Source: an uncultured Bacteroidales bacterium (GTDB lineage: Bacteria > Bacteroidota > Bacteroidia > Bacteroidales > VadinHA17). Taken from it: 64,000 nt of DNA. Below are positions 2,952-55,711 of the stretch, one piece after another; position 1 is the stretch's first letter, and each line of letters opens with the position of its first letter. The DNA is taken from NCBI GenBank assembly GCA_963825935.1, contig CAWGUN010000013.1, positions 1,012,340-1,076,339 of the forward strand. Direction: 5' to 3'. The translations under genes and the position numbers were made by a program. Under the pieces are notes generated by a model. The model saw only the letters and a list, made by a program, of their open reading frames with translations, made no database searches and was not told the origin of the DNA.

Positions 2952-3704
2952 ATGAGAAAATTCGGCCTTATTGGCTTTCCTCTCGGGCATTCTTTCTCAA
3001 AAAAATATTTTTCTGAAAAATTTGCGAAAGAAAATATCAGGGATTGTTCCTATGAGAATTTCCCGATTCATGATTTAAACCTTTTTCCGGAATTAATATC
3101 AGGTAATCCTGAACTTTGCGGATTAAATGTGACTATCCCTTATAAGACCGGGATACTTAAATATATCGATACGGCTGAACCTGTTATTGATGAAATAGGT
3201 GCAGTGAACGTATTGAAGATCAAAAGAATAAATGGAAAGACCAGGATCTCAGGTTACAACAGTGATGTGATCGGCATAAGGGATTCGATATTGCCCGTCA
3301 TGAACAGCAGACTGAGAAGCGCCATAGTTCTTGGTACCGGAGGGAGTTCAGGAGCTGTCAGTTATGCATTAAAAAAGCTTGGATTGAAAGTGACCCTTGT
3401 CTCACGAACCAGGAAACCAGGAGTCATTTGTTATGAAGATATCACAGCAGAATTATTGAAAAAGACAGATCTGATAATCAATACAACACCACTTGGATTG
3501 TTTCCAAATACGACTGCCAGGCCTGAAATTGACTACAGCCTGCTGAATAAAAACCATATTCTGTTTGACCTCGTTTATAACCCCGAACTGACTTTATTTC
3601 TTGAAAGTGGGAAGGAGAGAGGGTGTAAAATAATAACCGGGCTGAAAATGCTTTACTCTCAGGCAGACCGTTCGTGGGACATCTGGAATGATGATAAAAT
3701 GTAG
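2952..3704 (+). CDS. aroE: Shikimate 5-dehydrogenase
   Basis: 250 aa. It has the FGLIGFPLGHSFSKKYF N-terminus, NVTIPYK, the GTGGSSGAV dinucleotide loop and NTTPLG. Confidence 0.85.
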   Translation: MRKFGLIGFPLGHSFSKKYFSEKFAKENIRDCSYENFPIHDLNLFPELISGNPELCGLNVTIPYKTGILKYIDTAEPVIDEIGAVNVLKIKRINGKTRISGYNSDVIGIRDSILPVMNSRLRSAIVLGTGGSSGAVSYALKKLGLKVTLVSRTRKPGVICYEDITAELLKKTDLIINTTPLGLFPNTTARPEIDYSLLNKNHILFDLVYNPELTLFLESGKERGCKIITGLKMLYSQADRSWDIWNDDKM

Positions 3705-20278: not shown

Positions 20279-20608
20279 TCATGATTGGCATAATAAATTT
20301 ACTAACGAGGTCTTGAATAATCCAGTATGTGATAATTCTTTCCAATCTTTATTAAACTGATTAATAAGTGTCAGTTTTTTTCCCCTGGAAAACCCTTTAA
20401 TCTGTTTTTCCCTTTCTATTGCTGAAACAATTGAATCAAACCTTTCAAGATAAATCAGTTTATCAACATTATATTTCTGTGTAAATCCCTTTATTTTCTT
20501 TTGTTTATGTTCATAACACCTTCTCTCTAAGTCATTAGTACCTCCGGTATAAAGAACATTATGATGTGTATTTGTCAGGATATAAAAATAATATACCTGA
20601 GTTCTCAT
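20279..20608 (-). CDS. Small GIY-YIG nuclease family protein (URI-domain, COG2827-like)
   Basis: 109 aa. It has YYFYILTN..VLYTGGTNDLERRCYEH (GIY..YxG..R..H pattern) and ..EREKQIKGFSRGKK. Confidence 0.8.
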   Translation of the reverse strand: MRTQVYYFYILTNTHHNVLYTGGTNDLERRCYEHKQKKIKGFTQKYNVDKLIYLERFDSIVSAIEREKQIKGFSRGKKLTLINQFNKDWKELSHTGLFKTSLVNLLCQS

Positions 20609-20663
20609 TTAACTAACAGATTATTAATGACATTTATGATGAAGACCAAATTACAAAAAATCA

Positions 20664-20895
20664 GGAGATTCCTCGCTAACGCTCGGAATGACGTGGCGAG
20701 TTTGTAAGGTGTAGGGGGAAAGAAGTGGCGATTCGCAAACTTTAATTCTCTTGTCCATTTTACACTTTTTTGTGTAAACCTATTTTAGAACAAGACATTT
20801 TTGAACTCTTTCGATATTTTCAGCGAATCGCCACTTCTTTCCCCACCCCCTGTAAAATAATAAATTGTCATTCCGAGCGTTAGCGAGGAATCCCC
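20664..20895. repeat. 232-bp composite inverted repeat (MITE-like or structured RNA)
   Basis: The outer arms 20664..20692 and 20867..20895 are reverse complements (28/29). The inner arms 20715..20736 and 20823..20844 match 22/22. The 86-bp centre contains smaller stems of its own. Confidence 0.8.
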
Positions 20896-21098
20896 GGCAC
20901 TCTTGAACATTCACCTTCAGTTATTCAGACAGACAATCACAAATCAGAGAGTGCCTTGTCGCGCTTAGACCTCACCGAAGGTAATCTACCGGGATTCATG
21001 GTACGGATTATGGAGAGACACCCATATTTTCTAAAAATAGATCTCTTATTTGCTAAATATCAAATAGTTATACTTTAATGAAGCTAAAAACCGCTCAA

Positions 21099-24386: not shown

Positions 24387-26631
24387 TTATTTTGAAAGCG
24401 ACACAGGATATATTCTTGTTTTGGTTATTGGTATTTCCTTCGTTTGATATCCTTTTGCACTGATAATCAGGACTTCAGAGCCCACGGGTATTTCAAATTT
24501 GAATTCTCCCTTAGTATTTGTCATGTTCTCCGCAGCAGTATCCTTAACCCTTATCGAAGCATAAGCAATAGGCTTTCCGGTGACAGCATCCTTTACCACT
24601 CCTTTGATTTCATTCGGATTTATCCCGTTCCTTACTGAGGTTTCATATTCCTGCACCCACCTTAGATTATTTTTTGCTGAGACATTATTAGGATCAATAG
24701 CTATGATCTTCCCATATGCATCATTGGCCCTTGCAAGGATGGCAAGCTTCCCTTCAAGGGTTTTTTCATTCCCGGCTATTTTTGATTCAGTTGTACCAAT
24801 ACCATTATAACCCTTAATTTTATTCTCCTTGTTATTTGGATCCAGGTTGATCATCCTGTTATAGTACTCTTTTGCAGTAGAATAGTTTTCTTTTGACAAA
24901 TGATAATATCCAAGGTATCCGAAAGCTTCCATCATTTCAGCTTCATTCTTCAGTGAGTCGGGTTTTGCTATTTCAATGACTTTTTCAAACTTTTGCCTGG
25001 CAAGCCCCATTTTATAGTCGGGATCCATTTTGGAGTATGTCCTTGCTATATAGAGATGTGCAGGAAGGTACTTTGGAGATTTCTTAAGAATTAAACTAAA
25101 TACAGAATCTGCAGCTTTATAATTTCCTCCATTAATGAATGCCCTTCCGACCCTCATGTATCCATCGAGATCATCCTTGGCAGGATCAATAAGTTTTGCC
25201 ATGGTTTTTGCAGCTTCATTATACCGTCTGAAGTTACTGTAATAGCTGGCCATTTCGCTTAAAATCCCCCTGTCCTGAGGTTTGAGTTCAAGGACTTTAG
25301 TATATTCCCTGAATCCCCTGTCAATCTCTTTACTTGAATTTGCTACCTCGCTCTTCAGTTTTTCAACTTTGCCGGTTAATCCGTCAAGAGCAGGTTTCAA
25401 TTTGGCTTTATCGGCAGCTGAAGCAGCTGAATACCTGTTCTTTTCCCTTTGAAGCTGCTGGTCAAGATTATCAAGTTCATCTGCCATTTTTGGATAATTC
25501 TGATTTTTCTTCATCAGTATCCTTGCAGTATAATGATAATCTTTAGGCAGAATCCTGTCGGAAGAGACTGTTTTGAAGAGTTCATCCATATACCAGAGGG
25601 CTTTAACATAATCAGCATTCTTTTTCTCATAATATGAATATCCGGCCAGACGATTCATATATGCTCTTGATTTATCGACAGCAAGTATTTCTTCAACATT
25701 CTTAATAACTTCGTCATAATCACCTGCATAGAAAAGTGAGTTCACGTACCTCGTTTTAGCGGGGATATTGCCTTCTGTTAGTTCAAGATATTTTTTAAAA
25801 TTAATCTTTGACTGATCAAGCCTCTGGGCCATCCAGTAAAGCTGTCCAAGTTCGCGGTAAGCAGGAGCATAATTGGCATCCAGCCTGATAGCCTCCTCAA
25901 AATACGGAATGGCAGCCTGAAGACTCTTTCCTCTTACGTATATGTTACCAATTTTCATGTTTGCTGTCGGTGATTTAGGGTCTGCAAACTGGGCAAGGTT
26001 GTAATTCTTAATAGCATTGGAACCGTCATTTGCAAGAATATAAATATCTCCGGCGATCAGGAAAATATCCTTATTCTTGTCATCAATCTTCACTGCCTGC
26101 CTTATTAACGGAAGAGCTGCAGATGTATCAACCTCTCCATCCTTTATATAGGATTCAGCTATTTTAGCAAGTGCAAATGCATAATCCTTTGGCAGGGGGG
26201 ACGATCTTTTTTATGTTTTTATACGGAAGAAGAAAACTTTTAGCTTTGGCACGCATTTCTGTTGCTGTCTTATTATCATCGAGATAAGAGGCAATTTTTG
26301 CCAGACCAACATAATTAAGCGGATCTCCGGGATTGGCATTTACTCCTTTCTGGTAGAAATCCTTTGCTTTTTTTGTGGCTATTGAAAGCGAGTTGGATAT
26401 TGTATCAGCAAAATAATCAAGAAGTGTGTTTTCTCCAAGGAAGAAATAGTATTTGCTGTTTGCGGGCTCTTTCTGAACAAGTTGCTGTAACATTGTTTCG
26501 GCTTTATCATACTGCTCGCTCCTTGTCAGAGACAATGCAGAAGCTAAATCCTGTGCCTGAATATTGTTTGCAATAAATCCTGCCATCGCAGCAGCCAGGA
26601 AAAAACCTTTTGTTGAAAATGAACGTTTCAT
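24387..26631 (-). pseudogene. Secreted TPR protein with a C-terminal carboxypeptidase-regulatory-like domain, split by a frameshift in a homopolymer tract
   Basis: The ORFs 26164..26631 (signal peptide plus TPR) and 24387..26093 are contiguous if one C is removed from the C6 run at 26195..26200. The junction would then read ...KKIVPLPKDYAFALAKIAESY. Confidence 0.7.
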
Positions 26632-26756
26632 AACTAGAAATTTATTTTGATGTCAATTATACTAATTTTTGCTTTTAGTTATTCTTTTTTCTTTTATCTT
26701 TTGTTATTCCCGCTTTGCGGGATTTCGTCACTTTGTTCCTCAACTTTTGTCTTTTG

Positions 26757-27806
26757 TTAGTTCTTAGTCTGCACAATCCTTATAGGCATTGTGGCTGGAA
26801 CAAGTCCGGATTTCAGAACAATTCTTTGTCCCTGTTCAGCTGTAGCCCACTGTATAAAACCTGAACCTAATCCTTTAAATGTTTCTCTTGAAATAAGATA
26901 CACCTCTCTTACAAATGGATATGATTTGTCATAGATAAATCCCTGGTCCGGACGGTAATAGTAATTGTCATTTGACAATTGTTGTGAAACTGCCACACGA
27001 CGGATCTTATTTAGATAGCGCATGCTTGTCGAATCATCCTTGTCGCTTATCCAGTTTACGCTTACAATACCAAGGGCATCAGGATTCCTTGAGACGTAAT
27101 CTATTACTTCGACATTGCTGTTCTTTGCATAGAAATTACCCGGAAGATTGTCCTTTATTTCAAAGAGTTCTTTAAAGTACCTTATATTTCCCGATTTTGT
27201 ATTGTCAAAAATCACGCTTATATCGCCCCGTTTTGATTTGGGATCAAGATCTTTCCAGGTGACTGCATTTCCAAGAAAAATATCCTTTACAGATTTATAT
27301 TGTAAAAGTGTATCCATATTTTCCTTGTTTATAACCAGTGCAAGAGCATCATAGGCAAAGGTGATCGTACGGGCAACTATCAGGGTATCTCTCAGGTACT
27401 GGATCTGATCATCTGTAAGTTTCCTGCTGGTTACTATAACTTTGACAGAGTCGTTCATAAAATCATTAACCACATCATATTCCGGTTTATACTGAGGTTT
27501 AATCGTAGCATTTTCATACAGATGTGTAAAAGTAAAAACCTCTGCATCAATTAATGGCTGGAATGATTCATCAGCTGTAATTTTAATGTTTCCCTGTGTT
27601 GGTGATTCCAACGGAGCAGGGTTCTTTCCCCTGCATGAAACAAGGGAAAGCATTAACACTATTGCCAGATAACGCAATTCTTTACTAAAATTATGCGATT
27701 TTAAAGTGGTCACTCCGGTAATGCCGAAAGAAAGTATATTACGGCCCACAATAGTAATAAAATTCTGTGTAAATTTAACTATGCTCATATCCTTAAATTT
27801 TGTCAT
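26757..27806 (-). CDS. PstS-family phosphate-binding (PBP2-like) lipoprotein
   Basis: 349 aa with the lipobox LSLVSC and a periplasmic-binding-protein fold pattern. It is the first gene of the TPR-exbB-exbD-exbD-tonB block. The exact start is uncertain. Confidence 0.6.
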   Translation of the reverse strand: MTKFKDMSIVKFTQNFITIVGRNILSFGITGVTTLKSHNFSKELRYLAIVLMLSLVSCRGKNPAPLESPTQGNIKITADESFQPLIDAEVFTFTHLYENATIKPQYKPEYDVVNDFMNDSVKVIVTSRKLTDDQIQYLRDTLIVARTITFAYDALALVINKENMDTLLQYKSVKDIFLGNAVTWKDLDPKSKRGDISVIFDNTKSGNIRYFKELFEIKDNLPGNFYAKNSNVEVIDYVSRNPDALGIVSVNWISDKDDSTSMRYLNKIRRVAVSQQLSNDNYYYRPDQGFIYDKSYPFVREVYLISRETFKGLGSGFIQWATAEQGQRIVLKSGLVPATMPIRIVQTKN

Positions 27807-29527: not shown

Positions 29528-29921
29528 GCAGCAGGCCGTTCCATCGTCCCGCTTTTCCGCAGGGAAAAGCGGGAAGGAAAGTCCGGGCAACAAAGAGCAC
29601 CATGCTTCCTAACGGGAAGATATCCGTGAGGGTATAGAAGTGTAACAGAAAATAACCGTCCCGGTTTTACATTTTGTAGAAGCGGGGTAAGGGTGAAAAG
29701 GCGAGGTAAAAGCTCACCGGTTCCGATGGCAACACCGGAAGCCGTACACCTGATGGGTTGAAAGACCATGTATACCGGCAATAAGGGCTGCTCGTCCGAT
29801 GCCGGGGGGTAGGTCGTACGATCACCGCAGTGATGCTGTGACAAGATAAATGATGGAAAACGGTTCGAAATTCTCTTGCAGAAAACTGAACCGTACAGAA
29901 CCCGGCTTACAGGCCGGCTGC
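29528..29921 (+). ncRNA. rnpB: RNase P RNA, bacterial type A
   Basis: It has the universally conserved GGAAAGTCCGGGC (P4 5' strand) and ACAGAACCCGGCTTA (P4 3' strand). P1 pairs GCAGCAGGCC (29528-29537) with GGCCGGCTGC (29912-29921). Confidence 0.9.
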
Positions 29922-29966
29922 AACATGTAGAGGCGCCCAAATTGGTCGCCTCTACATGTTTTTTTT
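29922..29966 (+). terminator. Intrinsic terminator after rnpB
   Basis: Perfect 14-bp stem AACATGTAGAGGCG / CGCCTCTACATGTT followed by a T-run. Confidence 0.85.
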
Positions 29967-52231: not shown

Positions 52232-52264
52232 AACTTTACGGCTGGCTGTCAATTTAACCTTTTG

Positions 52265-52318
52265 TGATCTAGCTGGGATTCGAACCCAGGACCCTTCCGC
52301 GAAGCGGAATGCTCTACC
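52265..52318 (-). pseudogene. 3' fragment (54 nt) of a tRNA-Lys-like gene with a variant anticodon arm
   Basis: The minus strand reads GGTAGAGCA TTCCG CTTCG CGGAA GGGTC CTGGG TTCGAAT CCCAG CTAGATC A. The 5' acceptor strand and most of the D arm are missing, replaced by the end of the GIY-YIG ORF. Confidence 0.8.
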
Positions 52319-52559
52319 TGCAATTTATTATTTCGATGATAAAAGATTTTGATTTTCTGCTTTTAATATGCTTTTCTCTTGCCATAGCCTCTTTCCTGGT
52401 TTGAAACAATTCAGTATAGACAACTTCCCAGGGAATTCCAGCATCTGTAAACTTTCCTTTTTTGCGGTTATGCTCTGAAATCCTTCTTTCCAGATCATTG
52501 GTATAGCCGACATAGTACCTATCAAATGACTTACTATAAAGAATATAAACGGTAAACAT
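52314..52559 (-). CDS. Small GIY-YIG nuclease family protein (URI-domain)
   Basis: 81 aa from MFTVYILYS..RYYVGYTNDLERRISEHN (GIY-YIG pattern). The longer track start at 52598 would overlap the terminator. The stop TAG lies inside the tRNA-fragment D arm. Confidence 0.8.
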   Translation of the reverse strand: MFTVYILYSKSFDRYYVGYTNDLERRISEHNRKKGKFTDAGIPWEVVYTELFQTRKEAMAREKHIKSRKSKSFIIEIINCR

Positions 52560-52574
52560 AATGTGCAGTTGAGA

Positions 52575-52605
52575 CAAAAAAGAGGAACTATAAATCAATT
52601 CCTCT
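52575..52605 (-). terminator. Intrinsic terminator immediately after tRNA-Lys
   Basis: The minus strand reads AGAGGAA, 11-nt loop, TTCCTCT, then T6. Confidence 0.7.
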
Positions 52606-52614
52606 TCACCTTTG

Positions 52615-52687
52615 TGATCTAGCTGGGATTCGAACCCAGGACCCCATCCTTAAAAGGGATGTGCTCTACCAACTGAGCTACTAAATC
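52615..52687 (-). tRNA. tRNA-Lys (anticodon UUU)
   Basis: Hand-folded 73-nt cloverleaf: acceptor GATTTAG/CTAGATC (one G-U), D arm GCTC-AGTTGGTA-GAGC, anticodon arm CATCC-CTTTTAA-GGATG, variable loop GGGTC, T arm CTGGG-TTCGAAT-CCCAG, discriminator A. No CCA is encoded. Confidence 0.9.
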
Positions 52688-53308
52688 AAATTTTCATTTT
52701 AAAGAACCAGGACCCTTCCGCAAAGCGGAATGCTCTACCAACTGAGCTACTAAATCAAATTTTCATTTTAAAGAACCAGGACCCTTCCGCAAAGCGGAAT
52801 GCTCTACCAACTGAGCTACTAAATCAAATTTTCATTTTAAAGAACCAGGACCCTTCCGCAAAGCGGAATGCTCTACCAACTGAGCTACTAAATCAAATTT
52901 TCATTTTAAAGAACCAGGACCCTTCCGCAAAGCGGAATGCTCTACCAACTGAGCTACTAAATCAAATTTTCATTTTAAAGAACCAGGACCCTTCCGCAAA
53001 GCGGAATGCTCTACCAACTGAGCTACTAAATCAAATTTTCATTTTAAAGAACCAGGACCCTTCCGCAAAGCGGAGTGCTCTACCAACTGAGCTACTAAAT
53101 CAAATTTTCATTTTAAAGAACCAGGACCCTTCCGCAAAGCGGAATGCTCTACCAACTGAGCTACTAAATCAAATTTTCATTTTAAAGAACCAGGACCCTT
53201 CCGCAAAGCGGAATGCTCTACCAACTGAGCTACTAAATCAAATTTTCATTTTAAAGAACCAGGACCCTTCCGCAAAGCGGAATGCTCTACCAACTGAGCT
53301 ACTAAATC
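52688..53308 (-). repeat. Tandem array: 9 x 69 bp, each unit a 53-nt truncated 5' portion of a tRNA-Lys-like gene plus a 16-nt spacer
   Basis: The period is exactly 69 bp (unit ends at 52756, 52825, ... 53308). All units are identical except an A>G change at 53075 in unit 6. Confidence 0.95.
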
Positions 53309-53330
53309 AATCAACTTAAATTTGCGGTTG

Positions 53331-53361
53331 CAAATGTAGGATATTTTTATAATAATGCAAA
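53331..53361 (-). promoter_or_regulatory. Candidate Bacteroidetes promoter (-33 TTTG, N19, -7 TACATTTG) driving the array and tRNA-Lys
   Basis: On the minus strand, TTTG is at 53361-53358 and TACATTTG at 53338-53331. The first unit starts at 53308. Confidence 0.45.
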
Positions 53362-53537
53362 GTCCAAAAGCTATTTTGCAGATAAAATCTCTGTTAAATA
53401 TTTCAACAGGCTGATAAAATTCTACGGATTAATATACACTGAATATTTTCAGAAAAATCCTGCAGATTTTTTGTAATGAAATATTCATTCGTTCGTCTTC
53501 TTATTAAACTTTAATGTTAAACCTTAATAAAAAGTAT

Positions 53538-54044
53538 ATGAGAAGATTGTTTTTTATACTGGTATTTATCGGGACAGCACTTTTAGTAAACGGCCAAAGA
53601 TCTGTTGATGACCTATTTAACAAATATGCTGACAACGACGGTTTTGTGTCATTCACAATAAGTGGCAACTTTCTGAAATTTGTAAGATCCCTTGATGATG
53701 ATGAAAATGGCAACATTCACTCATGGCCTGAAAACATTACCGAAATAAGGATTCTGGCGCAGGATAAGGATAATCTGAAAGTCGATAATTTCTATGATCT
53801 TGTTTACAGGAACATAAATCGAAATCAGTACGAAGAATTCATGAGAGTAAAGAAATCAGATCAGGATCTTGTTATGCTGGTAAAAACTGATGGTAACAGA
53901 CTAAAAGAGATGCTTTTAATAGCAGGAGGGGAGGATAATGTACTGATCCAGATCAAAGGAAGCATGACAATGGGAGAAGCACGAAAATTATCAGCAGAAT
54001 TTAAGCATGATCATGACATTGATATTATTTCACACATGAATTAG
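53538..54044 (+). CDS. DUF4252-like secreted protein
   Basis: Signal peptide MRRLFFILVFIGTALLVNGQ, then DDLFNKYADNDGFVSFTISG. It is a paralogue of 55187..55711. Confidence 0.7.
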   Translation: MRRLFFILVFIGTALLVNGQRSVDDLFNKYADNDGFVSFTISGNFLKFVRSLDDDENGNIHSWPENITEIRILAQDKDNLKVDNFYDLVYRNINRNQYEEFMRVKKSDQDLVMLVKTDGNRLKEMLLIAGGEDNVLIQIKGSMTMGEARKLSAEFKHDHDIDIISHMN

Positions 54045-54094
54045 GATTTGATGTTATTATCTTTGCCCTGAATCTGCTAACTCCAATTTATCTG

Positions 54095-54637
54095 ATGACC
54101 CGGAATGCATTCAATGATATAATACATAATTACTACCGCAAACTTTACATCATTGCTTTCCGGATCCTCAGAAATCAACAGGAGGCTGAAGATGTTGTTC
54201 AGGAGGTTTTTATAAAGATGTGGAAAATGAAAGAAAAGCTTGATGGATACGATGATGTTGGGGCACTGGCTGTTACAATAACCAGGAATAATTGTATTGA
54301 TCTCCTTAGAAAATGGAAACATATTGACAGTGAAAAAGACGGAGCAGCTATACAAAATATGGAACTTTCTCCTTCACCCTACGACCAGCTGGTAAACTCC
54401 GAAACTTCAGCAATATTGAATAAAATAATTGAAGATCTTCCTCCAAACTTCCGGACTATTGTCCGGCTGAGGGAGATAGATGGATTTTCTTATGAGGAAA
54501 TTGCAGTGAAAACAGAGACTAATATAAACAGCCTGCGAGTTGCATTATCAAGAGCACGCTCGATTATCAGGGATAAATATACCCGATACACAAATGAAAC
54601 AAGAGGAACTAAAAAAGCTGCTGGCACAGTACTATAA
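54095..54637 (+). CDS. ECF-type RNA polymerase sigma-70 factor
   Basis: 180 aa with region 2 (EAEDVVQEVFIKMW) and region 4 (REIDGFSYEEIAVKTETNINSLRVALSRAR). Confidence 0.85.
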   Translation: MTRNAFNDIIHNYYRKLYIIAFRILRNQQEAEDVVQEVFIKMWKMKEKLDGYDDVGALAVTITRNNCIDLLRKWKHIDSEKDGAAIQNMELSPSPYDQLVNSETSAILNKIIEDLPPNFRTIVRLREIDGFSYEEIAVKTETNINSLRVALSRARSIIRDKYTRYTNETRGTKKAAGTVL

Positions 54638-55163
54638 CGGCGATACTTCGACGGAAGACGAAATTAATCTGAGAGATTACTTTTCAGGTGACGATGTATT
54701 TCCGGGATATGAGGCTGAGAAAGAGATTTTTAATCATTACTCGGCAGAAGAAAAAATTCCGGCTCCATCCGGTGATCTTGAACACAGGATCATTAAATCA
54801 ATTGATGACCTTGAAAACGCACGGAGTATCCCGGGAAGAACAATGTACATTGCCATAATAAGTGTTGCTGCTACATTTATTATTCTGGTCGGCTCCTACT
54901 TTTTCTTCTTACGCAGCCAGGAACCAAAAGATACATTTTCAGATCCCAGGATAGCTTACGCAGAAACAATGAAAATACTTAATGAAGTATCAGTAAAGCT
55001 GAATAGAGGTACCAGCAGGCTGCAGCCGATCAATAAATTAAATAATACAGCACGGAAAAGTATTGAATCGGTCGACAGATCAGCTTTGATGATTACTAAC
55101 AGCCTAAAGCGCATTGAGGTCATCCGTAAACTATCAGAAACAGATGTCCAGAAAAACAATTAA
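54594..55163 (+). CDS. Putative anti-sigma factor (single TM helix)
   Basis: Start chosen at MKQEELKKLL, overlapping the sigma gene 3' end. There is one TM helix (IAIISVAATFIILVGSYFFFL). Position is typical of ECF modules. Confidence 0.55.
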   Translation: MKQEELKKLLAQYYNGDTSTEDEINLRDYFSGDDVFPGYEAEKEIFNHYSAEEKIPAPSGDLEHRIIKSIDDLENARSIPGRTMYIAIISVAATFIILVGSYFFFLRSQEPKDTFSDPRIAYAETMKILNEVSVKLNRGTSRLQPINKLNNTARKSIESVDRSALMITNSLKRIEVIRKLSETDVQKNN

Positions 55164-55186
55164 AATATTCTATAAAATTCCATAAG

Positions 55187-55711
55187 ATGAAAAAGTTATT
55201 TCTCATAATTGCAACCCTTTCAGTTTTCGCCGGAATTAATGCCCAGACAAATCCGATAGATGCGTTATTTGATAAGTATTCTGATCAGGATGGATTTACA
55301 TCAGTCTATATCTCGGGTAAGATGCTCAACATGTTAGGTGGATTGGGACAGGAGTCCGGAACAAAGGATAATATCCTAATGCGTCTCAAATCTATCAGGA
55401 TAATATCTCAGGATTCATTATCAAATCTGAAAGTAAATTTCTATGACGAATTAAGCAGAAAGCTTGATTTATCAGTTTATGAGGAACTTATGGTTGTAAA
55501 AGAGGGGCATGATGTGACAAAATTTCTTACTCGTCAAACCGGAAACATTATAACTGAACTTCTGGTTGTCTCCGGTGGAATTGGTGGAAATTCCCTTATT
55601 TCAATAAAAGGTGATATAAACCTTAAAGAGCTGTCAACACTTTCCAAAACACTTGGTATTGAAGAGCTCGGGCAACTTGATAATGCCGATCAAAAGAAAC
55701 CTGAAAAATAA
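55187..55711 (+). CDS. DUF4252-like secreted protein
   Basis: Signal peptide, then IDALFDKYSDQDGFTSVYISG. It parallels the 53538 paralogue. Confidence 0.7.
   Translation: MKKLFLIIATLSVFAGINAQTNPIDALFDKYSDQDGFTSVYISGKMLNMLGGLGQESGTKDNILMRLKSIRIISQDSLSNLKVNFYDELSRKLDLSVYEELMVVKEGHDVTKFLTRQTGNIITELLVVSGGIGGNSLISIKGDINLKELSTLSKTLGIEELGQLDNADQKKPEK

What the first reader, a model, noticed from the sequence alone, without database searches (positions are those of the whole stretch)
52688..53308. Nine near-identical 69-bp tandem units, each a truncated 5' portion of a tRNA-Lys-like gene, fused upstream of an intact tRNA-Lys(UUU)
The period is exactly 69 bp with 9 copies (621 bp). The only difference among them is an A>G change at 53075.

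On the minus strand each unit reads as follows:
- GATTTAGTAGCTCAGTTGGTAGAGCA: the acceptor 5' strand plus the D arm, identical to the first 26 nt of the neighbouring intact tRNA-Lys.
- TTCCGCTTTGCGGAA: a variant anticodon arm.
- GGGTC CTGG TTC: the variable loop and a partial T stem.
- TTTAAAATGAAAATTT: a 16-nt A/T spacer where the tRNA breaks off. This spacer is also the 5' leader of the intact tRNA.

The units lack the T-loop 3' half and the acceptor 3' strand, so none of them can form a cloverleaf. The array is not a CRISPR (no unique spacers) and not coding (no ORF in any frame in the track).

A good Bacteroidetes-type promoter (TTTG-N19-TACATTTG, 53361-53331) lies directly upstream. An intrinsic terminator (52605-52575) lies directly after the intact tRNA. 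The nine tRNA-like pieces and tRNA-Lys would therefore be made as one precursor of roughly 0.75 kb.

The near-identity implies very recent amplification or ongoing homogenisation. The 26-nt identical 5' segments are an obvious slippage or unequal-crossover substrate.

Possible meanings, all speculative: a neutral by-product of recombination; a source of abundant tRNA-half-like RNAs; or decoys/sponges for tRNA-Lys-directed enzymes. tRNA-Lys(UUU) is the classical target of anticodon nucleases such as PrrC.
Basis: partly seen in the sequence, partly recalled or inferred. Interest (0 to 1): 0.8.

Follow-up and report, generated by a model that had tools for sequence, protein, structure and literature searches.

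The report
Repeated broken tRNA copies beside nuclease
The nine tandem 69-bp units are amplified, disabled front parts of the tRNA-Lys gene; they belong to a widespread and apparently undescribed cassette in which a tiny GIY-YIG nuclease gene sits beside a tRNA gene, flanked by hairpin-marked broken copies of that tRNA, and this is most likely a selfish DNA element that breaks and re-copies its own neighbourhood.

Summary
In detail: there are 9 units of 69 bp at 52688-53308 (-), with one SNP at 53075. None of them is a tRNA. They lie upstream of a genuine tRNA-Lys(UUU).

After the tRNA and its terminator comes an 81-aa GIY-YIG nuclease ORF (52314-52559). Its stop codon lies in the D arm of a tenth, 3'-type tRNA-Lys copy, which carries the same replacement hairpin.

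The layout [0-10 truncated 5' copies] - tRNA-Lys - terminator - [1 to >=13 x (GIY-YIG + 3' copy)] recurs in more than 100 Bacteroidales loci. Distant relatives of the nuclease sit beside tRNA-Asp, -Ala and -Met in other phyla. Disabled copies of those tRNAs carry the same hairpin family (TYCCGN-loop-N'CGGRA).

- The hairpin stem covaries while its loop is free.
- The copies co-evolve with their own tRNA.
- They break at the T loop, which carries the sequence motif at which phage nuclease SegB cuts tRNA genes.
- Near-identical strains carry 9, 8 and 4 units.

Best reading (about 0.5): this is a selfish, Slx1/YhbQ-like nuclease cassette, and the breaks it makes plus recombination create and amplify disabled tRNA copies. 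The role of the hairpin is unresolved. I class it as a new variant of a known kind, of moderately high interest.

The parts
53331..53361 (-). Bacteroidetes-type promoter: TTTG (53361-53358), 19-nt spacer, TACATTTG (53338-53331), then the leader GCAACCGCAAA
   Evidence: Sequence. In 46 of 63 related loci the same TAnnTTTG + GCAC(T/C)CGCAAA leader lies about 22 nt upstream of the first tRNA-like 5' end, whether that end is a truncated unit or the genuine tRNA. The consensus itself is from established knowledge of Bacteroides promoters.
52688..53308 (-). Nine 69-bp truncated 5' tRNA-Lys copies ('5' V units'): tRNA positions 1-26, a replacement hairpin, the variable loop, a remnant of the T-stem 5' strand, TTC, and a 16-nt A/T spacer
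   Evidence: Not tRNA by ARAGORN or Rfam.
52716..52730 (-). Replacement hairpin TTCCGC-TTT-GCGGAA of the tRNA-proximal unit. The other eight are at 52785-52799, 52854-52868, 52923-52937, 52992-53006, 53061-53075 (CTCCGC variant), 53130-53144, 53199-53213 and 53268-53282
   Evidence: script coordinates + 50000. Covariation across loci.
53033..53101 (-). Variant unit 4: position 27 is C as in the genuine tRNA (G at 53075 on the + strand). This is a footprint of exchange between the tRNA and a unit
   Evidence: (27-nt match to the tRNA). The same variant occurs in 4 of 8 units of L122 and 4 of 9 units of L112.
52614..52687 (-). Genuine tRNA-Lys(UUU)
   Evidence: ARAGORN; Rfam tRNA 73.3 bits. Its T loop matches the SegB motif RAWTSGAAC at 52627-52635.
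52570..52607 (-). Intrinsic-terminator-like hairpin (12 pairs) plus T run between the tRNA and the nuclease ORF; only about 16 nt follow before the ATG
   Evidence: An equivalent hairpin plus T run is seen between the tRNA and the GIY ORF in related loci.
52314..52559 (-). 81-aa GIY-YIG nuclease ORF (UPF0213/YhbQ/Slx1-like). Its last codons and TAG stop (52316-52314) lie in the D-arm sequence GGTAGAGC of the 3' copy
   Evidence: Pfam PF01541 E=5.8e-19. PDB 1ZG2 and 1YWL. Model pLDDT 91.8. Closest folds 1ZG2, then Slx1. Invariant Y5, Y16, G18, R26, H30, N31, E62.
52261..52318 (-). 3' tRNA-Lys copy ('3' V'): GGTAGAGCA, hairpin TTCCGC-TTC-GCGGAA (52295-52309), GGGTC, intact T arm, acceptor 3' strand, ACAA
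   Evidence: 34 nt identical to the tRNA 3' part. Its T loop also matches RAWTSGAAC at 52277-52285.

Best explanation
The array is a segmental amplification of one component of a tRNA-gene-associated nuclease cassette. The cassette has three parts: a genuine, promoter-driven tRNA gene; a minimal (81 aa) Slx1/YhbQ-type GIY-YIG nuclease gene, which has no promoter of its own and would be expressed only by read-through of the tRNA terminator; and disabled partial copies of the same tRNA, in which the anticodon arm (or the T arm) is replaced by a short stable hairpin. I propose the following mechanism. The nuclease occasionally nicks or breaks the folded or transcribed tRNA-gene DNA, preferentially at the T loop. 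Repair by homologous or microhomology recombination between the genuine gene and its disabled copies then does three things. It keeps the copies similar to the tRNA. It creates truncated and interrupted copies. Through unequal exchange it expands and contracts tandem arrays, both of the 5' copy (the 69-bp units here) and of the [nuclease + 3' copy] unit in other genomes. The cassette behaves as a selfish element that persists beside an essential gene and can re-invade tRNA loci. The hairpin is a cassette-specific cis element whose paired stem is under selection. I think it most likely closes, and so protects, the site the structure-selective nuclease would otherwise cut, or else it is the nuclease's docking site. 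The nine units are co-transcribed as the leader of tRNA-Lys and are probably not needed individually. Shown here: the anatomy, the conservation, the covariation, the co-evolution with the tRNA, the copy-number variation, the fold and the invariant catalytic residues. Inferred: nuclease activity, its substrate, its causal role in the rearrangements, mobility, and the role of the hairpin.
For: Anatomy:
- The tenth hairpin copy and the GIY-YIG ORF were found.
- A DNA-pattern scan found the same layout in 29 Bacteroidales genome loci.
- Of 80 metagenome loci chosen through the protein alone, 52 have tRNA-Lys(UUU) just upstream. About 65 have a hairpin-bearing copy just downstream, and none has a genuine anticodon arm there.

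Generality:
- Relatives beside tRNA-Asp (Ignavibacteria), tRNA-Ala (Sphingobacteriales) and tRNA-Met (Parcubacteria; L117) carry TCCCGA-loop-TCGGGA in disabled copies of those tRNAs.

Hairpin under selection for pairing:
- Stem position 2 is T-A in 63 loci, C-G in 18 and mispaired in 3.
- Stem position 6 is C-G in 70, T-A in 6, A-T in 2 and mispaired in 6.
- The loop varies in sequence and in length, from 3 nt to about 30 nt.
- The 5' and 3' copies of one locus can carry different variants, each still paired (L033, L070).
- In 5' units the stem is 0.79 identical between loci, against 0.45 for the adjacent remnant.

Recombination:
- 3' tails differ by 1.05 nt from their own tRNA and by 3.95 nt from other loci's tRNAs.
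- The position-27 C footprint is enriched in tRNA-proximal units.
- Close strains carry 9, 8 and 4 units; L112 has at least 9 units of 70 bp and L106 has 9 of 71 bp.
- [GIY + 3' copy] arrays reach 13 x 347 bp (12 intact ORFs) and 7 x 364 bp.

T loop as breakpoint:
- Truncated 5' units occur in 35 loci, most with the junction GGTTC|TTTAA. Hairpin insertions sit after TTC or TTCG in 3' copies.
- The GIY-YIG homing endonuclease SegB cuts tRNA genes at RAWTSGAAC, which is the T-loop box, and drives tandem amplification of tRNA plus a truncated segB (PMC13096335). The window's tRNA and 3' copy match that motif.

Selfish-element signs:
- Pseudogenised copies occur (L001, L011, L017, L007, L077).
- GIY-less remnants occur (L027, L058, L075).
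- Divergent GIY genes are stacked after one tRNA (L113, L037).
- No integrase or transposase lies nearby.

Protein:
- Catalytic residues are invariant. The closest folds are UPF0213, then Slx1.
Against: - No activity, substrate or mobility has been shown for any member of this family.
- The protein has only the catalytic domain and no DNA-binding domain, unlike SegB or I-TevI. It is only about 38% identical to any phage GIY-YIG, and no relative was found in viral contigs.
- YhbQ-type proteins are ordinary chromosomal genes in many bacteria.
- The genuine tRNA would remain cuttable, and the model does not explain how it escapes.
- A by-product model does not by itself predict a covarying hairpin kept independently in 5' and 3' copies.
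- Three loci keep 5' units without any GIY gene (L008, L010, L025), and some GIY relatives lack any hairpin copy (for example L057, L086, L092).
- The T-loop match to the SegB motif holds for any tRNA with a GTTCGAATC loop, and that motif is not enriched in the window (5 found, 6.15 expected).
- Covariation counts are not phylogenetically independent; they may reflect only two or three events.
Confidence: 0.5

Rival explanations
1. RNA-partner model (type III toxin-antitoxin-like or autoregulatory). The hairpin-bearing pseudo-tRNA RNAs, made in excess from the strong tRNA promoter, bind the GIY-YIG protein through the conserved stem. They hold it inactive, or target or regulate it. The terminator sets the RNA:protein ratio, and more units give more buffering.
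For: The layout promoter - tandem repeats - terminator - small nuclease gene resembles ToxIN. The stem covaries and the loop length is free, so the functional form is a folded single strand. The hairpin accompanies the protein family across tRNA identities and phyla. In the Asp subgroup the ORF ends inside the hairpin, with the stop codon in its loop. 5' and 3' hairpins are kept paired independently. Arrays of 4 to 10 units recur in several lineages.
Against: Many loci have no 5' units at all, so an array is not obligatory. GIY-YIG enzymes are DNA nucleases, and no RNA-binding or RNase activity is known for them. The toxin fold differs from all type III toxins. Promoter-proximal units decay (L110 unit 1, L001). 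No excess of G-U over A-C mismatches was evident in the variant hairpins I read; this was not formally counted. The units show no significant thermodynamic structure (z = -0.84).
Confidence: 0.2
2. Neutral recombination product unrelated to the nuclease. A partial tRNA-Lys duplicate arose once, and ordinary replication slippage or unequal crossing-over between the 26-nt and 69-nt repeats expands it. The neighbouring GIY-YIG gene is a bystander.
For: The units are near-identical and share perfect repeats with the tRNA. Copy number differs between close strains. 5' units persist in three loci without GIY.
Against: The association with the GIY-YIG gene holds in loci selected by protein only, and holds across four tRNA identities and several phyla. 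The hairpin covaries and is far better conserved than the adjacent remnant. [GIY + copy] units are themselves amplified. Breakpoints cluster at the T loop.
Confidence: 0.12
3. Housekeeping operon with tRNA-like punctuation. The nuclease is a normal cellular repair enzyme co-transcribed with tRNA-Lys, and the tRNA-like pieces serve as RNase P/Z-type processing or stabilising signals for its mRNA.
For: The ORF lacks its own promoter and is bracketed by tRNA and tRNA-like sequence plus terminators. Some 3' copies are complete cloverleaves (L020 scores 50.6 bits as tRNA; ARAGORN calls in L051, L094, L096 and L105).
Against: In most 3' copies, including the window's, the acceptor 5' strand and D stem are lost in the coding sequence, so RNase P cannot act. 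This model does not explain truncated 5' units, pseudogenes, 13-copy gene arrays or stacked divergent genes.
Confidence: 0.08
4. Assembly artefact, or att-site duplication by an integrase-type element.
For: Short-read assemblies of the same population break on both sides of the array, which shows that it is hard to assemble. tRNA 3' fragments are classic integrase scars.
Against: Independent assemblies and long MAG contigs show the same arrays. The repeated piece is the 5' part of the tRNA, not the 3' part. No integrase, transposase or cargo genes are present.
Confidence: 0.03

Closest known systems
SegB, the free-standing GIY-YIG homing endonuclease of T4/T6 phages in the tRNA gene cluster (PMC13096335)
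   Same: A GIY-YIG nuclease gene embedded among tRNA genes. SegB cuts inside tRNA genes at a T-loop motif. Breaks plus homologous recombination give tandem repeats whose unit joins a tRNA 5' end to the 3' end of the nuclease ORF, and copy number is unstable. Here the ORF likewise ends inside a tRNA 5' part, arrays of [nuclease + tRNA copy] exist, and breakpoints sit at the T loop.
   Different: SegB is phage-borne, about 220 aa, and has a DNA-binding domain. Its amplified tRNA is functional and selected as an anti-defence measure. Here the protein is 81 aa, of the Slx1/YhbQ type and chromosomal (no viral hits; <=38% identity to phage proteins). The amplified pieces are disabled tRNA copies, and a conserved hairpin replaces a tRNA arm.
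UPF0213 / YhbQ / YazA - Slx1 family of small GIY-YIG (URI) nucleases
   Same: Sequence and fold: 1ZG2 and 1YWL by profile search, Slx1 structures by Foldseek, and invariant catalytic residues. Slx1 is a structure-selective nuclease acting on branched DNA (PMC7017083; PDB 6SEI title).
   Different: No tRNA linkage, pseudo-tRNA flank or hairpin has been described for this family as far as my searches show. Slx1 needs Slx4 and has a zinc-finger domain that is absent here.
Type III toxin-antitoxin systems (ToxIN, CptIN, TenpIN)
   Same: Promoter, tandem direct repeats, terminator, then a small nuclease gene; the repeat number varies.
   Different: The toxin fold is different. A genuine tRNA gene lies between repeats and terminator. 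The repeats are optional. No evidence exists that the protein processes or binds the RNA.
tRNA gene fragments left by integrative elements (integrase att duplications)
   Same: Partial tRNA copies flank an inserted segment. The 5' copy (positions 1-56) and 3' copy (positions about 17-76) overlap in the way a single-crossover insertion through an internal fragment would produce.
   Different: There is no integrase and no cargo. The inserted segment would be only about 430 bp. The 5' part is repeated, an arm is replaced by a hairpin, and there is tandem amplification.
REP elements with RAYT transposases (hairpin repeats tied to one nuclease gene)
   Same: A short conserved hairpin co-occurs with a specific small nuclease gene family, and the stem rather than the loop is conserved.
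   Different: RAYTs are HUH enzymes and REPs are dispersed genome-wide. Here the hairpins are confined to tRNA-derived copies next to the gene. About 200 of the hairpins found lie in tRNA-like contexts, and only a handful of short-loop ones occur elsewhere in 0.5 Mb.

Membership tests
Functional tRNA gene | Complete cloverleaf detected by ARAGORN or the Rfam tRNA model | tested here: not met
   Only 52614-52687 is called. No unit reaches E<=10. The units lack the T-loop 3' half and the acceptor 3' strand.
CRISPR array | Repeats separated by unique spacers | tested here: not met
   The whole 69-bp unit, including the 16-nt spacer, is identical in all copies.
GIY-YIG nuclease superfamily, UPF0213/YhbQ/Slx1 branch | GIY-YIG domain with the conserved Tyr, Tyr, Arg, His and Glu; fold match | tested here: met
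   PF01541 E=5.8e-19. 1ZG2 and 1YWL. Invariant Y5, Y16, G18, R26, H30, N31 and E62. Foldseek hits 1ZG2, then Slx1 at TMq 0.65-0.69.
Free-standing homing endonuclease (Seg-type) | Nuclease domain joined to a sequence-reading DNA-binding domain | tested here: not met
   The protein is 81 aa, catalytic domain only.
Free-standing homing endonuclease (Seg-type) | Patchy presence between conserved genes, degeneration, repeated invasion | tested here: inconclusive
   Pseudogenes, GIY-less remnants and stacked divergent copies are seen, and there are loci with the tRNA but no GIY. No clean empty versus occupied pair of otherwise identical strains was found.
Free-standing homing endonuclease (Seg-type) | Cleavage of the endonuclease-free allele and copying of the gene into it | not testable with these tools
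   Needs biochemistry and a genetic cross.
Type III toxin-antitoxin | Tandem repeats, then a terminator, then the toxin gene | tested here: inconclusive
   The order is present in the window, but a tRNA gene intervenes and many loci have no 5' repeats.
Type III toxin-antitoxin | Toxin of the ToxN/AbiQ, CptN or TenpN endoribonuclease type that processes its own repeat RNA | tested here: not met
   The protein is GIY-YIG. PADLOC gives only weak partial GIY-domain hits (PDC-S14, UzuA; E about 2e-4). Processing is not testable here.
Integrase-mediated integrative element at a tRNA gene | Tyrosine or serine recombinase gene next to duplicated tRNA 3' ends | tested here: not met
   The neighbours are DUF4252, ECF sigma, DUF937, AsnC and PyrD/PyrK, with no recombinase.
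Known RNA families (Rfam 15) | Match of the unit, the hairpin or the loop inserts to any covariance model | tested here: not met
   Window region at E<=10. Twelve loci at E<=1 give only tRNA matches.

The most novel reading that the evidence does not exclude
The hairpin-marked pseudo-tRNA pieces are functional partners of the mini GIY-YIG nuclease rather than debris. This would be a new two-component system in which a conserved stem, embedded in copies of whichever tRNA is adjacent, docks, restrains or directs an Slx1-like nuclease, either as RNA or as folded single-stranded DNA. That would make it either a tRNA-mimic antitoxin system of a new type, or a structure-guided homing device that uses tRNA genes as universal landing sites from Bacteroidota to Parcubacteria.
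Probability: 0.2. Interest if true: 0.9.

Novelty: new variant of a known kind. Interest (0 to 1): 0.68.

Why it matters
Free-standing GIY-YIG homing endonucleases are known mainly from phages and organelles. A minimal, 81-aa, Slx1-like version that lives beside essential tRNA genes in bacterial chromosomes of several phyla would extend that biology. Its signature is disabled tRNA copies carrying one conserved hairpin.

It would explain a class of odd tRNA pseudogene arrays that break short-read assemblies and confuse tRNA annotation.

It offers a natural cellular counterpart to the SegB-driven segmental amplification described in 2026.

It gives the uncharacterised UPF0213/YhbQ family a concrete, testable substrate: tRNA-gene DNA and a defined hairpin.

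If the hairpin turns out to be the nuclease's partner, it would be a new nucleic-acid-protein recognition module of very small size.

Tried and rejected
- **Units as tRNAs or T-armless tRNAs:** there are no ARAGORN or Rfam hits. Single-unit and two-unit folds are no better than shuffles (z = -0.84, -0.47, -0.11).
- **CRISPR:** there are no unique spacers.
- **Coding:** there is no ORF.
- **Known small ribozymes or other RNA families in the long T-loop inserts:** none found.
- **Phage origin:** there are no relatives in IMG/VR, and only <=38% identical GIY-YIG proteins in GenBank phages.
- **Defence-system membership:** PADLOC gives only weak partial hits and NCBIfam gives none.
- **Integrase scar:** there is no recombinase.
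- **Hairpin as a spaced double-stranded palindromic operator:** rejected, because the loop length ranges from 3 to about 30 nt.
- **Hairpin as a genome-wide REP-like repeat:** rejected, because nearly all copies lie in tRNA-like contexts.
- **PrrC-type decoy:** the units lack the anticodon loop.
- **The AAATGAAA motif** shared by spacers and some insert loops: noted, but probably explained by stop-codon placement and A/T richness; not pursued.
- **Prior description:** four literature searches found none. This covers only the open-access library.
- **Exact look-up of the window's own GIY protein:** nothing found.
- **Sense-strand RNA versus DNA hairpin:** G-U versus A-C mismatch counts were too few to be informative.
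Full report
**1.

Tandem Repeats Finder gives a single array at 52662-53310 with period 69, 9.4 copies, 99% matches and no indels. On the minus strand there are nine 69-nt units at 52688-53308. Eight are identical. Unit 4 has C instead of T at tRNA position 27, which is G at 53075 on the + strand.

Each unit has these parts:
- the first 26 nt of the adjacent tRNA;
- a 15-nt hairpin, TTCCGC-TTT-GCGGAA;
- the variable loop GGGTC;
- a shortened T-stem 5' strand plus TTC;
- a 16-nt A/T spacer.

ARAGORN and Rfam recognise only the genuine tRNA-Lys(UUU) at 52614-52687. The units are not tRNAs, not coding and not a CRISPR array.

**2.

A search with the hairpin found a tenth copy at 52290-52312. Reading on from the tRNA gives this order: a terminator hairpin; 16 nt; an 81-codon ORF (52559-52314); and, overlapping its last codons, a 3'-type tRNA-Lys copy. 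That copy reads GGTAGAGCA - TTCCGC-TTC-GCGGAA - GGGTC - intact T arm - acceptor 3' strand. The ORF's TAG stop is the TAG of the D-arm sequence GGTAGAGC.

The ORF is a GIY-YIG nuclease (Pfam E = 5.8e-19). The locus therefore reads:

promoter - 9 truncated 5' copies - tRNA-Lys - terminator - nuclease - 3' copy

**3. The layout is widespread**

An exact-pattern scan of one genome per species found the hairpin in 29 loci, all from Bacteroidales or Bacteroidia MAGs. Mapping tRNAs, GIY ORFs and hairpins showed the same order everywhere:
- 0-9 truncated 5' copies;
- 1 to at least 13 tandem [GIY + 3' copy] units (13 x 347 bp in L024, 7 x 364 bp in L005).

That set was selected through the hairpin itself. 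I therefore fetched 80 metagenome loci through a protein profile alone. Of these:
- 52 have tRNA-Lys(UUU) within about 60 nt upstream of the ORF; most of the others are cut by a contig end or are preceded by another unit;
- about 65 have a hairpin-bearing tRNA-Lys copy straight after the ORF;
- none has a copy with the genuine anticodon arm.

Truncated 5' copies occur in 35 loci. Most share the junction GGTTC|TTTAA and a similar A/T spacer, so the module is old and inherited. Long 5' arrays recur: 9 x 71 bp (L106), at least 9 x 70 bp (L112), 4 x 66 bp, 4 x 88 bp and others.

**4. The hairpin is the conserved signature**

In the protein-selected loci:

| Stem position | Paired variants (loci) | Mispaired (loci) |
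|---|---|---|
| 2 | T-A 63, C-G 18 | 3 |
| 6 | C-G 70, T-A 6, A-T 2 | 6 |

The loop varies freely. TTT, TTC, CTT, TAC, TGC and TCC all occur, as do 4-6-nt loops.

The 5' and 3' copies of a single locus can carry different variants, each still paired (L033 and L070). In the window the loops are TTT in the 5' units and TTC in the 3' copy. Among 5' units, the stem is 0.79 identical between loci and the 12 nt after the variable loop only 0.45.

The same kind of hairpin, TCCCGA(T)-loop-(A)TCGGGA, also occurs elsewhere:
- inserted in the T loop or D loop of some copies, sometimes with 20-30-nt interiors;
- in place of the anticodon arm in the more distant Lys loci.

Because loop length is unconstrained, the functional form must be a stem in a folded single strand. 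It cannot be a spaced double-stranded operator. No Rfam family matches.

**5. It is not specific to tRNA-Lys or to Bacteroidales**

The tRNA-Asp-linked relative (L107) has homologues in Ignavibacteria, Marinimicrobia, Sphingobacteriales and Parcubacteria. Sampled contexts:

| Locus | Taxon | Layout |
|---|---|---|
| L113 | Ignavibacteria | tRNA-Asp - terminator - GIY - Asp copy with its T arm replaced by TCCCGACTAGTCGGGA - second, divergent GIY - same kind of copy |
| L116 | Sphingobacteriales | tRNA-Ala - terminator - GIY - Ala copy with TCCCGATGTATATCGGGA in the anticodon arm |
| L115 | Parcubacteria | truncated 5' tRNA-Met copy with TCCCGAC...GTCGGGA - GIY - second such copy - genuine tRNA-Met |
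| L117 | not identified | three hairpin-bearing tRNA-Met copies - genuine tRNA-Met - terminator - GIY - degenerate copy |

The hairpin therefore travels with the nuclease family, and the tRNA-derived flanks are those of the local tRNA.

**6. Signs of ongoing recombination**

The 33 nt after the hairpin differ by 1.05 nt from the tRNA of the same locus, against 3.95 nt from the tRNAs of other loci; 22 of 39 are identical. The copies are therefore homogenised with their neighbour, yet the hairpin is never overwritten.

The single SNP in the window array makes unit 4 match the genuine tRNA for 27 nt instead of 26. The same variant marks 4 of 9 units in L112. It also marks 4 of 8 units in L122, an independent assembly of a near-identical strain, and there the variant units cluster next to the tRNA. 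That pattern is what unequal exchange between the tRNA and a unit would leave.

Syntenic close relatives carry 9 units (window), 8 units with an internal 25-nt duplication in the first (L122), and 4 units with the promoter-proximal ones decaying (L110). A short-read assembly of the same population breaks on both sides of the array.

**7. The protein**

It belongs to the UPF0213/YhbQ (COG2827) stand-alone GIY-YIG family. Sources call it 'putative endonuclease' or 'GIY-YIG nuclease family protein'. YhbQ and YazA are classed with Slx1 (PMC7017083).

Across 30 diverse members, Y5, Y16, G18, R26, H30, N31, E50, R61, E62, K66 and K69 are invariant. The AlphaFold model is confident (pLDDT 91.8). Its best structural matches are UPF0213 BH0048, then the Slx1 nuclease domain (TMq 0.65-0.69), ahead of I-TevI and UvrC.

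Other observations on the gene:
- Some copies are pseudogenes.
- 12 of the 13 copies in the L024 array, and 7 of 7 in L005, are intact.
- L113 and L037 carry two divergent genes stacked after one tRNA.
- No relative occurs in viral contigs.
- The neighbours in the window are housekeeping genes, with no recombinase.

**8. Transcription (inferred)**

The -7 box TAnnTTTG and the leader GCAC(T/C)CGCAAA lie about 22 nt upstream of the first tRNA-like 5' end in 46 of 63 loci. This holds whether that end belongs to a truncated unit or, where there are no units, to the tRNA itself. No promoter-like motif lies between the array and the tRNA.

The array must therefore be transcribed for this tRNA-Lys gene to be expressed. 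RNase P would release it as a leader of about 0.65 kb. The nuclease ORF starts 16 nt after the terminator's T run, so it is probably expressed only by read-through.

**9. Mechanism proposed**

The closest documented behaviour is that of SegB in phage T6. SegB is a GIY-YIG endonuclease sitting in the tRNA cluster that cuts inside tRNA genes at RAWTSGAAC. The complement of that motif is the T-loop box GTTCSAWTY. Through homologous recombination SegB generates unstable tandem repeats in which a tRNA 5' end is joined to the 3' end of a truncated segB (PMC13096335).

In the window, the tRNA and the 3' copy both carry GATTCGAAC, a perfect match to that motif. The truncated units have lost it. The T loop is also the recurrent breakpoint and insertion point.

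I therefore propose that the mini nuclease, acting as a structure-selective enzyme on folded or transcribed tRNA-gene DNA, makes occasional breaks. Recombination between the genuine gene and its disabled copies then homogenises, truncates and amplifies them.

The overlap of the 5' copy (positions 1-56) and the 3' copy (positions about 17-76) is what an 'ends-in' insertion through an internal tRNA fragment would produce. This is an inference about origin only.

The hairpin's paired stem is clearly selected. My preferred reading is that it closes a loop that would otherwise be cut, or that it docks the protein. Neither has been shown.

**10. Rivals**

- An RNA-partner or type III TA-like reading is not excluded. 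It would account better for the covarying stem and for its independent maintenance in 5' and 3' copies.
- A purely neutral slippage origin fits the array's dynamics. It does not fit the conserved hairpin or the association with the nuclease across tRNA identities and phyla.
- A housekeeping 'punctuation' role fails because most 3' copies lack the acceptor 5' strand.
- Assembly artefact and integrase scar are very unlikely.

**11. Novelty and limits**

Four full-text searches found no description of this arrangement. A paper on prokaryotic tRNA gene fragments does not mention it. Only open-access literature was searchable.

Limits:
- All functional statements about the nuclease are inferred.
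- The covariation counts are not corrected for phylogeny.
- The three GIY-less loci were found through the hairpin pattern, so they are biased.
- The exact copy number in the window needs reads.

Noticed in passing
window 20279-20608 (-), with repeats at 20640-20919: A second GIY-YIG paralogue (109 aa, 40% identical to the tRNA-linked one). It is not next to a tRNA. It is preceded by nested inverted repeats: 53-nt arms at 77% complementarity and 22-nt arms at 100%.
   Followed up: partly
window 29528-29925 (+): Bacterial RNase P RNA, class A, 239 bits.
   Followed up: no
window 26708-26722: TCCCGCTTTGCGGGA, identical to the C-G variant of the cassette hairpin. It stands alone in the gap between two minus-strand ORFs (26164-26631 and 26757-27806), with no tRNA-like flank. 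It could be an ordinary terminator stem or a stray copy.
   Followed up: partly
window 53514-55711 (+): Two DUF4252 paralogues (53514-54044 and 55187-55711) bracket an ECF sigma factor (54095-54637) and an overlapping putative anti-sigma ORF (54540-55163), directly upstream of the array.
   Followed up: no
L113 1184-1755; L037 1367-1959: Two clearly divergent GIY-YIG genes (roughly half and three-quarters identical by eye) are stacked in tandem after a single tRNA, each with its own hairpin-bearing tRNA copy. This suggests repeated invasion rather than local duplication.
   Followed up: partly
L107 3235-3300; L113 1400-1450 and 1730-1770: In the tRNA-Asp subgroup the ORF reads into the hairpin: the C-terminus ...GRPD/E is encoded by CGT CCC GAC, which is the 5' arm of the stem, and the stop codon lies in the hairpin loop.
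   Followed up: partly
L011 about 3570-3620; also L082, L063, L054, L007/L104, L005 about 3385-3450: Long hairpin inserts (30-60 nt) in the T loop of 3' copies, with TCCCGA...TCGGGA bases and loops such as GAATGAAATGAAG. No Rfam match.
   Followed up: partly
L077 1-2151: An array of six GIY-YIG copies, most with frameshifts or stops, each followed by a doubled TTCCGT-TTC-ACGGAA hairpin. This is a decaying array.
   Followed up: no
window 52261-52230 compared with L110 2760-2800: The window and L122 lack the terminator hairpin (CCCGACGATCTACGTCGGGTTTTTT) that follows the 3' copy in the close relative L110.
   Followed up: no
L122 4750-4823: The promoter-proximal unit of the near-identical strain carries an internal 25-nt duplication (GGTAGAGCATTCCGCTTTGCGGAGG), so there is a second, smaller-scale repeat event inside the array.
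   Followed up: no
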